Assembly (NCBI RefSeq): GCF_011045215.1
Contig: NZ_CP049201.1
Origin: Escherichia coli
Lineage (GTDB): Bacteria; Pseudomonadota; Gammaproteobacteria; Enterobacterales; Enterobacteriaceae
DNA: 64,000 nt
Direction: 5' to 3' (one strand)
The notes under the pieces are model-generated. The model made no database searches. It worked only from the letters and a program-made list of their open reading frames with translations, and was not told the origin of the DNA. Both the position numbers and the translations under genes were made by a program. Numbering within the stretch: position 1 is the stretch's first letter; each line of letters begins with the position of its first letter. Below, in pieces: positions 19,379 to 19,612 of this stretch.

Positions 19379-19390
19379 TGAGAGGTGTTA

Positions 19391-19494
19391 GATTGCCTGA
19401 TGCGCTACGCTTATCAGGCCTACGAAGAGCGTGCAATATATTGATTTTGCAAGATTGTGTAGGCCGGATAAGGCGTTTACGCCGCATCCGGCAT
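19391..19494. repeat. REP elements (pair of inverted REP units)
   Basis: GCCTGATGCGCTACGCTTATCAGGCCTAC and TGTAGGCCGGATAAGGCGTTTACGCCGCATCCGGCA. Confidence 0.6.
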
Positions 19495-19612
19495 GAACAG
19501 TGTGCATTTTGGCAATAAATCTGAAACCAACTGTCATGTCGGTTTTTTTATATCTGTATTCTGGTGCAACCATTCTGTTCTCACGACAATCGCCGTTTCA
19601 GAATACCGCCCA

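What the first reader, a model, noticed from the sequence alone, without database searches (positions are those of the whole stretch)
19379..19612. Empty site where K-12 carries the rhsD element
ybbP is followed after only ~230 bp, containing a pair of REP units, by mnmH (ybbB). In K-12 as I recall the rhsD-ybbC-ylbH-ybbD block lies between them. The junction here may represent the pre-insertion state.
Basis: established knowledge. Interest (0 to 1): 0.3.

Follow-up and report, generated by a model that had tools for sequence, protein, structure and literature searches.

The report
Rhs-free ybbP–mnmH spacer, ordinary allele
This E. coli strain lacks the 7-kb RhsD toxin element that K-12 carries between ybbP and mnmH, a known and common strain difference, but its short spacer is not a clean "before" picture, because part of it looks like the leftover of a different small toxin-antitoxin module that was lost.

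Summary
ybbP (16964-19378, +) and mnmH/ybbB (19613-20707, -) converge on a 234-bp spacer holding two inverted REP units. K-12 has 7,301 bp there (rhsD, ybbC, Rhs fragments, an H-rpt remnant).

The reading "pre-insertion state" is only partly supported.

1. K-12 and the window share only 6 bp after the ybbP stop and about 13 bp before the mnmH stop. The Rhs allele therefore substitutes for 19385-19599. It is not an insertion at a point within this sequence.
2. The REP pair is ancestral, being shared with E. albertii and B2-type E. coli spacers. The right-hand 93 bp (19507-19599) is not. It holds a single copy of a terminator that, in 1,315 of 5,426 complete E. coli genomes, occurs twice and flanks a 478-bp DinQ-like toxin/AgrB antisense-RNA module.
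3. That terminator is the AgrB family's own. The window is therefore best read as a deletion scar, a form seen in only 4 of 5,426 genomes and on at least two haplotypes.
4. The site is a multi-allelic hotspot: RhsD in about 53% of genomes, spacers with ybbP and mnmH close together (REP-only or DinQ-like module) in about 34%, and other occupants, including an Hcp-effector island, in the remaining ~12%.

RhsD presence/absence at this position is already published. This is an ordinary, low-interest finding.

The parts
16964..19378 (+). ybbP, the ABC transporter permease subunit. It forms the left flank, and its stop codon TGA is at 19376-19378.
   Evidence: ORF list. NCBIfam NF041854, 1458 bits. 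The last 960 bp are identical to O157:H7.
19379..19384 (.). TGAGAG, the last bases shared with the K-12/O157 Rhs allele (left junction). The G at 19382 is C in every other Rhs-free allele examined.
   Evidence: Junction display. Alignment. The exact 80-mer is found only in PapM-32-1 among 5,426 genomes.
19395..19423 (+). REP unit, short type: GCCTGATGCGCTACGCTTATCAGGCCTAC. I call it Z1-type from my recollection of the BIME nomenclature.
   Evidence: Sequence. REP tail match. Conserved in E. albertii and in the REP-bearing E. coli spacers examined; absent from SCU-116.
19424..19458 (.). 35-bp linker between the two REPs. It contains an exact match to the IHF consensus (AATCAATATATTG, 19434-19446, - strand), which is the BIME-1/RIP-like layout.
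   Evidence: The match alone is not above chance (2 found, 2.7 expected). Its position between the two REPs is what fits the layout.
19459..19492 (-). REP unit, 34 nt: GCCGGATGCGGCGTAAACGCCTTATCCGGCCTAC on the - strand (Y-type, from recollection). It is inverted relative to the first REP.
   Evidence: The pair folds as a long hairpin, -44 kcal/mol, z = -4.75. Sub-threshold Rfam hits to REP-derived families naRNA4 and ES036.
19493..19506 (.). ATGAACAGTGTGCA, spacer sequence conserved in all Rhs-free alleles including E. albertii. It marks the left edge of the 93-bp block.
   Evidence: Alignments.
19507..19599 (.). 93-bp block absent from E. albertii and B2-type spacers. It is read as the remnant of the DinQ-like/AgrB module. 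Strain HS has the same block plus 478 bp inserted after 19550.
   Evidence: GC is 0.39, against 0.55-0.58 in the flanking genes.
19524..19550 (.). Single terminator hairpin (AAACCAAC-TGTCAT-GTCGG followed by T7A). Bases 19530-19550 are the 21-bp perfect direct repeat that flanks the module in other strains. Base 19529 (A) matches the module's left copy.
   Evidence: Terminator-like site on the - strand. Folds of -6.5 kcal/mol (+) and -8.5 kcal/mol (-). The right copy in HS is the 3' hairpin of Rfam AgrB RF02891. Left and right copies align over 37 bp.
19600..19612 (.). AGAATACCGCCCA, the last 13 bp before the mnmH stop. It is weakly conserved in all alleles including K-12 (AAATACGTCCCTCA) and marks the right junction of both the Rhs allele and the 93-bp block.
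19613..20707 (-). mnmH (ybbB), tRNA 2-selenouridine synthase. It forms the right flank. Its stop codon is TGA here and TAA in the Rhs alleles and E. albertii.
   Evidence: NCBIfam NF008749, 757 bits. SNP table.

Best explanation
The 234 bp between the convergent genes ybbP and mnmH is one allele of a multi-allelic intergenic hotspot. It has two parts. The first is an old REP pair with an IHF-consensus linker (BIME-1/RIP-like), inherited from before E. coli split from E. albertii. The second is a 93-bp block whose core is a single rho-independent terminator. That block is what remains after a 478-bp DinQ-like toxin/AgrB antisense-RNA (type I toxin-antitoxin) module was deleted. The deletion ran between the two copies of the AgrB terminator that flank the module (21 bp perfect, 37 bp imperfect direct repeats). 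K-12's RhsD element is an alternative allele. It replaces everything from 6 bp after the ybbP stop to about 13 bp before the mnmH stop, so the window is Rhs-free but is not the literal sequence into which Rhs inserted.

Shown: the gene identities, the junction coordinates, the allele series, allele frequencies, and the AgrB identity of the terminator in module-bearing strains.

Inferred: the direction of change (deletion rather than insertion); the mechanism (slippage or recombination between the repeats); and any present function of the leftover hairpin as a terminator for ybbP and mnmH.
For: The K-12 and O157 Rhs intervals and junctions come. Nothing of 19385-19599 survives in them beyond chance 9-13-mers.

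The allele series is 58, 140, 234, 240, 526, 603, 712 and 913 bp, then 6.1 and 7.3 kb. HS equals the window plus 478 bp bounded by ACTGTCATGTCGGTTTTTTTA.

The HS module encodes a 27-aa DinQ homologue (NCBIfam toxin_DinQ, 40.9 bits, cutoff 30). It also encodes an sRNA matching Rfam AgrB over the full model (53.6 bits, gathering score 40). The 3' hairpin of that model is the right terminator copy. The canonical agrA and agrB terminators have the same CCGAC...GTCGG-T7A core. Both are reported to have rho-independent terminators (PMC3567139). The window block against the canonical locus scores 29, with a null maximum of 27 in 500 shuffles.

E. albertii and the two B2-type spacers examined (FHI_NMBU_03, SSGw1) lack the block.

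Single-terminator alleles occur in 4 of 5,426 genomes, against 1,315 with the module. They sit on two spacer haplotypes, each matching a module-bearing haplotype: window and PapM-32-1 resemble PE164, while LR-28, AR_0077 and GF131 resemble ST648. Their junction base is either A or G. Other internal deletions of the module also run between short repeats, in PE164 and ST648.
Against: A divergent Escherichia lineage (L014, about 7% from the window in both flanks) has a single-terminator spacer with a perfect stem and about 7% divergence in the block. The single-copy state is therefore old there and could be ancestral to the module.

The similarity of the window's 27-37 nt to AgrB is short. No Rfam hit is obtained in the window itself, and the part right of the terminator shows no significant similarity to the canonical locus.

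The origin of the module's left terminator copy is unexplained.

Only about 15 alleles were read base by base. The population counts rest on BLAST coverage classes.
Confidence: 0.7

Rival explanations
1. Virgin, never-occupied site. The window keeps the ancestral spacer, including a native bidirectional terminator. RhsD in K-12 and the DinQ-like module in HS are later insertions into this kind of sequence.
For: The REP pair is ancestral. G19382 is shared only with the Rhs alleles examined and PapM-32-1. The window's flanks are the closest Rhs-free relatives of the O157 Rhs haplotype, at 0.54% and 0.55%. The divergent L014 lineage has a single, perfect terminator.
Against: The terminator is the AgrB family's own 3' hairpin. 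E. albertii and B2-type spacers lack the whole 93-bp block. The window carries the A variant of the module's left copy rather than the perfect stem. Single-copy alleles are nested in two different module-bearing haplotypes, which would require the same insertion twice. K-12 shows replacement, not insertion.
Confidence: 0.2
2. Secondary loss of RhsD. The window's lineage once carried the Rhs allele and lost it when a short piece of donor DNA carrying an Rhs-free spacer replaced it by homologous recombination in the flanks.
For: The flanks are Rhs-haplotype-like right up to the junctions, with the last 960 bp of ybbP identical to O157. The 234-bp spacer is identical to that of PapM-32-1, whose flanks differ from -48 on the left and +91 on the right. 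The spacer has therefore moved as a short patch in at least one of the two. The 64-kb window is a recombination mosaic. Jackson et al. 2009 (PMC2935791) list gene loss as one cause of rhs repertoire variation among K-12, HS and ATCC 8739.
Against: There is no Rhs remnant. A module-bearing allele (OZ197100) shares the same near-flank haplotype, so these flanks are not specific to Rhs alleles. This rival is compatible with the scar reading of the spacer itself and is not exclusive of the best explanation.
Confidence: 0.3
3. Assembly artefact. The 478-bp module is present in the real genome but was collapsed at the repeated terminator during assembly.
For: The breakpoints coincide with a 21-bp repeat.
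Against: Collapsing a repeat does not remove 478 bp of unique sequence between the copies. The identical layout occurs in four independently finished genomes.
Confidence: 0.02

Closest known systems
RhsD element of E. coli K-12 (Rhs 'position 3', ybbA-ybbB, in Jackson et al. 2009, PMC2935791; listed as variable among lab strains in Archer et al. 2011, PMC3032704, Table 6)
   Same: Same chromosomal site. The window is the Rhs-free alternative that these papers already record for strains such as HS and Crooks/ATCC 8739.
   Different: The window contains no Rhs sequence at all. The K-12 allele replaces the spacer rather than interrupting it. The window's Rhs-free allele also differs from the HS/ATCC 8739 allele by lacking the DinQ-like module.
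BIME-1 / RIP (REP pair with an IHF site); nomenclature from my recollection of Gilson, Bachellier, Boccard and Oppenheim, early 1990s
   Same: Two inverted REP units of different types, separated by a linker of about 35 bp that carries an exact IHF consensus. They lie between convergent genes.
   Different: IHF binding was not tested. The IHF match alone is not above chance. The Y/Z1 type names are recalled, not checked against a database.
dinQ-agrAB type I toxin-antitoxin locus (Weel-Sneve et al. 2013, PMC3567139; Rfam RF02891 AgrB; NCBIfam NF041472)
   Same: The module present at this site in 24% of E. coli genomes has a DinQ homologue, an AgrB-family sRNA and the AgrB terminator. The window keeps one copy of that terminator and its flanks.
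   Different: The window has neither the toxin ORF nor the sRNA body. The module at ybbP-mnmH is a paralogue, about 67-70% DNA identity to the gor-arsR locus over some 250 bp. It has one sRNA gene plus an orphan terminator copy rather than agrA plus agrB.
Deletion between short direct repeats (replication slippage or short-homology recombination; general knowledge)
   Same: The breakpoints lie exactly in a 21-bp perfect repeat 478 bp apart, and the repeats are hairpin-forming. Two other deletions inside the module also end in short repeats.
   Different: The mechanism is inferred from the end products only. No rate or recA dependence is known.

Membership tests
RhsD element | An rhs core gene (YD-repeat protein of about 1,400 aa) between ybbP and mnmH | tested here: not met
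   The spacer is 234 bp and its longest overlapping ORF is 91 aa, the out-of-frame tail of ybbP. There is no similarity to the K-12/O157 Rhs interval beyond chance 9-13-mers.
RhsD element | An AT-rich leader of about 430 bp after ybbP, and an H-rpt remnant (ylbG) before mnmH | tested here: not met
   Both are present in K-12 and O157 and absent from the window.
BIME-1 / RIP | Two REP (palindromic) units of different types in inverted orientation | tested here: met
   19395-19423 (+) and 19459-19492 (-). The joint hairpin folds at -44 kcal/mol, z = -4.75.
BIME-1 / RIP | A linker carrying an IHF binding site | tested here: inconclusive
   There is an exact WATCAANNNNTTR match at 19434-19446 (-), inside the linker. 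The pattern occurs at chance frequency in the window. Binding is not testable here.
DinQ/AgrB type I toxin-antitoxin | A DinQ-family toxin ORF | tested here: not met
   None of the spacer ORFs listed resembles DinQ on reading; they were not scanned against NCBIfam. The HS allele has one (NF041472, 40.9 bits against a cutoff of 30).
DinQ/AgrB type I toxin-antitoxin | An AgrB-family antisense sRNA (Rfam RF02891) | tested here: not met
   There is no AgrB hit in window 19300-19700 at E<=1 or in 19495-19612 at E<=10. HS has a full-length hit of 53.6 bits. The window retains only the 3' hairpin.
Rho-independent terminator | A GC-containing hairpin followed by a U tract | tested here: met
   On the - strand there is a terminator-like site at 19545-19524 with the tail CAGATTTATT. 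On the + strand there is a hairpin with one mismatch followed by T7, at -6.5 kcal/mol; the intact HS copy gives -16.9 kcal/mol. Termination activity was not tested.

The most novel reading that the evidence does not exclude
The two edges of the ybbP-mnmH spacer (2-6 bp after the ybbP stop and about 13 bp before the mnmH stop) might act as a fixed, reusable docking site. At least three unrelated toxin cargos have been swapped in and out there: the RhsD element, an Hcp-fused effector with DUF2931 immunity genes, and a DinQ-like/AgrB type I toxin-antitoxin module. The Rhs allele and the DinQ-like block share the same right boundary to within 1-2 bp. This would point to a site-directed exchange mechanism, or to strong selection on the edges, rather than to independent random events.
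Probability: 0.12. Interest if true: 0.45.

Novelty: already known. Interest (0 to 1): 0.15.

Why it matters
The finding matters little. Presence or absence of RhsD between ybbP and mnmH has been documented since the ECOR surveys and in genome comparisons (PMC2935791, PMC3032704). About 47% of complete E. coli genomes lack the K-12-type element. The modest added value is a caution: an "empty" site in one strain is not automatically the ancestral sequence. Here the empty allele carries the scar of a different accessory module, and the site holds at least four alternative occupants. This could be a convenient natural system for studying how a type I toxin-antitoxin module is lost, and whether that loss is counter-selected.

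Tried and rejected
1. I looked for REP or terminator remnants inside the K-12/O157 Rhs interval. Only chance 9-13-mers turned up. The best, a 13-mer at L001 10976, lies inside an ORF and does not continue as a REP.

2. O157:H7 strain TR01 has a hybrid junction, half of the first REP fused to the Rhs leader. I considered it as the original insertion junction. I rejected this because it is unique (1 of 5,426) within a clonal group that otherwise has the standard junction.

3. I first took the 58-bp SCU-116 spacer for a REP-less ancestral state. I rejected this because its first 31 bp are the left end of the Hcp-effector island seen in ST131 and E. whittamii, so it is a hybrid.

4. I tested whether the block right of the terminator (19551-19598) resembles the region downstream of canonical agrB. 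It does not reach significance.

5. Metagenome scans for the G-type left junction and for the single-terminator junction returned 0 hits.

6. I tried to read Hill et al. 1995 and Wang et al. 1998 on Rhs-null sites. Neither is held.

7. My first REP pattern had the wrong spacing, and a second had an invalid form. I replaced them with the REP tail pattern.

Full report
**Observation**

The window has ybbP at 16964-19378 (+) and mnmH (ybbB) at 19613-20707 (-). These are followed by allS, allA, allR and gcl, as in E. coli. The two genes converge on a 234-bp spacer, 19379-19612.

The spacer holds two REP units in inverted orientation, at 19395-19423 (+) and 19459-19492 (-). The REP tail motif occurs five times in the 64-kb window against none expected. 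The 35-bp linker between them carries an exact IHF consensus at 19434-19446. That pattern alone is not above chance.

In K-12 MG1655 the same two genes are 7,301 bp apart. The interval holds rhsD, ybbC, an Rhs core fragment, small ORFs and the ylbG H-rpt remnant. O157:H7 has a 6,097-bp version.

**Where the Rhs allele joins**

The window and K-12 share the ybbP end plus TGAGAG (19379-19384). They then diverge completely. They become alignable again only at about 19600, where AGAATACCGCCCA in the window corresponds to AAATACGTCCCTCA in K-12, just before the mnmH stop.

Nothing of 19385-19599 is found inside the K-12 or O157 interval beyond chance 9-13-mers. The Rhs allele is therefore a substitution for the whole spacer, REPs included. 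It is not an insertion at a point relative to the REPs. The left junction lies 10 bp upstream of the first REP.

**The site has many alleles**

Among 5,426 complete E. coli genomes:
- 2,879 carry the K-12-type Rhs left junction.
- 1,867 have ybbP and mnmH close together.
- About 680 have something else.

One example of the last group is ST131. It carries a 4.2-kb island with an Hcp(TssD)-fused effector and three DUF2931 genes. The same island is present in E. whittamii and another Escherichia lineage.

Rhs-free spacers that I read base by base measure 58, 140, 234, 240, 526, 603, 712 and 913 bp.

The commonest Rhs-free form is the 712-bp one of strains HS and ATCC 8739. It equals the window's spacer plus 478 bp inserted after 19550, bounded by a direct repeat ACTGTCATGTCGGTTTTTTTA. 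The repeat is 21 bp perfect and 37 bp imperfect. At least 80% of this block is present in 1,315 genomes.

**What the 478 bp is**

It encodes a 27-aa DinQ homologue (NCBIfam toxin_DinQ, 40.9 bits against a cutoff of 30). On the other strand it encodes an sRNA that matches Rfam AgrB over the full model (53.6 bits, gathering score 40). The terminal hairpin of that model is the right-hand copy of the repeat.

The canonical agrA and agrB genes in the gor-arsR spacer end in the same CCGAC...GTCGG-T7A hairpin. The paper that described them reports rho-independent terminators for both (PMC3567139). The repeated hairpin therefore belongs to the AgrB family. The window has one copy of it (19524-19550) but neither the toxin ORF nor the sRNA body.

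**Direction of change**

E. albertii and the two B2-type E. coli spacers I read (FHI_NMBU_03, SSGw1) have the REP pair. They pass directly from GTGCAC to AGAAT and lack the whole 93-bp block 19507-19599. This is the best candidate for the unoccupied state.

The single-terminator form is rare. Besides the window, 4 of 5,426 genomes have it: PapM-32-1, LR-28, AR_0077 and GF131. Two metagenome scans found none.

These alleles fall on two spacer haplotypes, each matching a module-bearing haplotype. The window and PapM-32-1 match PE164. The other three match ST648. The variable base in the hairpin is A in some and G in others, as expected for crossovers at different places in the repeat.

Two further deletions inside the module, in PE164 and ST648, also end in short repeats.

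I therefore read the window's block as a deletion scar of the DinQ-like/AgrB module, with confidence about 0.7.

The main counter-evidence is a divergent Escherichia lineage (L014, about 7% from the window in both flanks). It has a single, perfect terminator with matching divergence, so the single-copy state is old there.

**Was Rhs ever here?**

The window's flanks are closest to Rhs-bearing haplotypes. O157 differs by 0.54% in the last 1,300 bp of ybbP and 0.55% in mnmH, and it is identical over the last 960 bp of ybbP. The spacer, however, is 234/234 identical to that of PapM-32-1, whose flanks differ by 2.1% and 1.5%, starting 48 bp to the left and 91 bp to the right. The spacer has thus moved as a short patch in at least one of these two strains.

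The whole window is a recombination mosaic whose best match among complete genomes is only 99.1%.

The G at 19382 is shared by the window, PapM-32-1 and the Rhs alleles I read (K-12 and O157). It is C in all other Rhs-free alleles examined. This fits two readings:
- The window is the closest survivor of the haplotype that received Rhs.
- A recombination replaced Rhs and resolved at the very edge of the flank homology.

A module-bearing allele (OZ197100) shares the same near flanks, so the flanks do not decide the matter. I could not resolve this question.

**Function**

No coding potential is credible in the spacer. The REP pair and the leftover hairpin sit between two convergent genes. The hairpin scores as a terminator on the mnmH strand. 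On the ybbP strand it is a weakened hairpin with a T7 tail, at -6.5 kcal/mol against -16.9 kcal/mol for the intact copy in HS. That it now helps to terminate either transcript is an inference only.

**Comparison with what is known, and verdict**

Rhs presence or absence at this position is published. Jackson et al. 2009 define it as Rhs position 3 and discuss gains and losses among K-12, HS and ATCC 8739 (PMC2935791). Archer et al. 2011 list rhsD as present in K-12, B and W and absent in Crooks (PMC3032704).

The window is not a member of the Rhs or DinQ/AgrB families, because their defining genes are absent. It is an ordinary Rhs-free allele with a BIME-1-like REP pair and a module scar. The finding is real but already known, and its "pre-insertion" reading is only partly right.

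Noticed in passing
L009 (E. coli HS) 1779-2348; same place in about 1,315 of 5,426 genomes: A second, paralogous DinQ-like toxin/AgrB sRNA module sits between ybbP and mnmH. It shows about 67-70% DNA identity to the canonical gor-arsR dinQ locus over some 250 bp and is also related to plasmid dqlB. PGAP labels its ORF simply 'dinQ'. I found no paper describing this chromosomal copy among those I searched.
   Followed up: partly
L095 (ST131) 9501-13722; L016 (E. whittamii) 1089-4651; L017: A 3.6-4.2-kb island occupies the same spacer. It carries an Hcp(TssD)-fused effector of about 667 aa plus two or three DUF2931 genes. It also changes the last codons of mnmH.
   Followed up: partly
L098 (O157:H7 strain TR01) 2541-2600: A unique hybrid left junction: the ybbP stop, then TGACAGG and half of the first REP, fused directly to the Rhs leader (TGTTTAAATTAATTC). 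It is seen in 1 of 5,426 genomes. It could be a rare recombinant or an assembly or polishing artefact.
   Followed up: partly
L007 (SCU-116) 2001-2058: This 58-bp spacer is a hybrid. Its first 31 bp are the left end of the Hcp-effector island, joined to the right end of the B2-type spacer.
   Followed up: partly
L049 and L089 (genome contigs): E. coli mnmH with the K-12-type Rhs right end occurs on a 4-kb contig binned as 'uncultured Alistipes'. A 394-bp fragment occurs in a Trinickia soli assembly. Both are likely contamination of those assemblies.
   Followed up: no
window 54164-62177: tRNA-Arg(tct) (argU) lies at 54164-54240. It is followed directly by a tyrosine integrase (54256-55419, -), an IS21-family istA/istB pair (56181-57982) and a CI-like S24 repressor (61485-62177). 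This is a prophage or its remnant at argU, interrupted by an IS.
   Followed up: partly
window 1-64000: No complete E. coli genome matches the window closely. The best is PapM-32-1 (baboon, Gambia) at 99.1% over 24 kb. Identity along the window switches between PapM-like and O157-like blocks, a typical recombination mosaic.
   Followed up: partly
window 19615-19613 compared with K-12, O157 and E. albertii: The mnmH stop codon is TGA in every Rhs-free E. coli allele examined. It is TAA in the Rhs alleles and in E. albertii.
   Followed up: no
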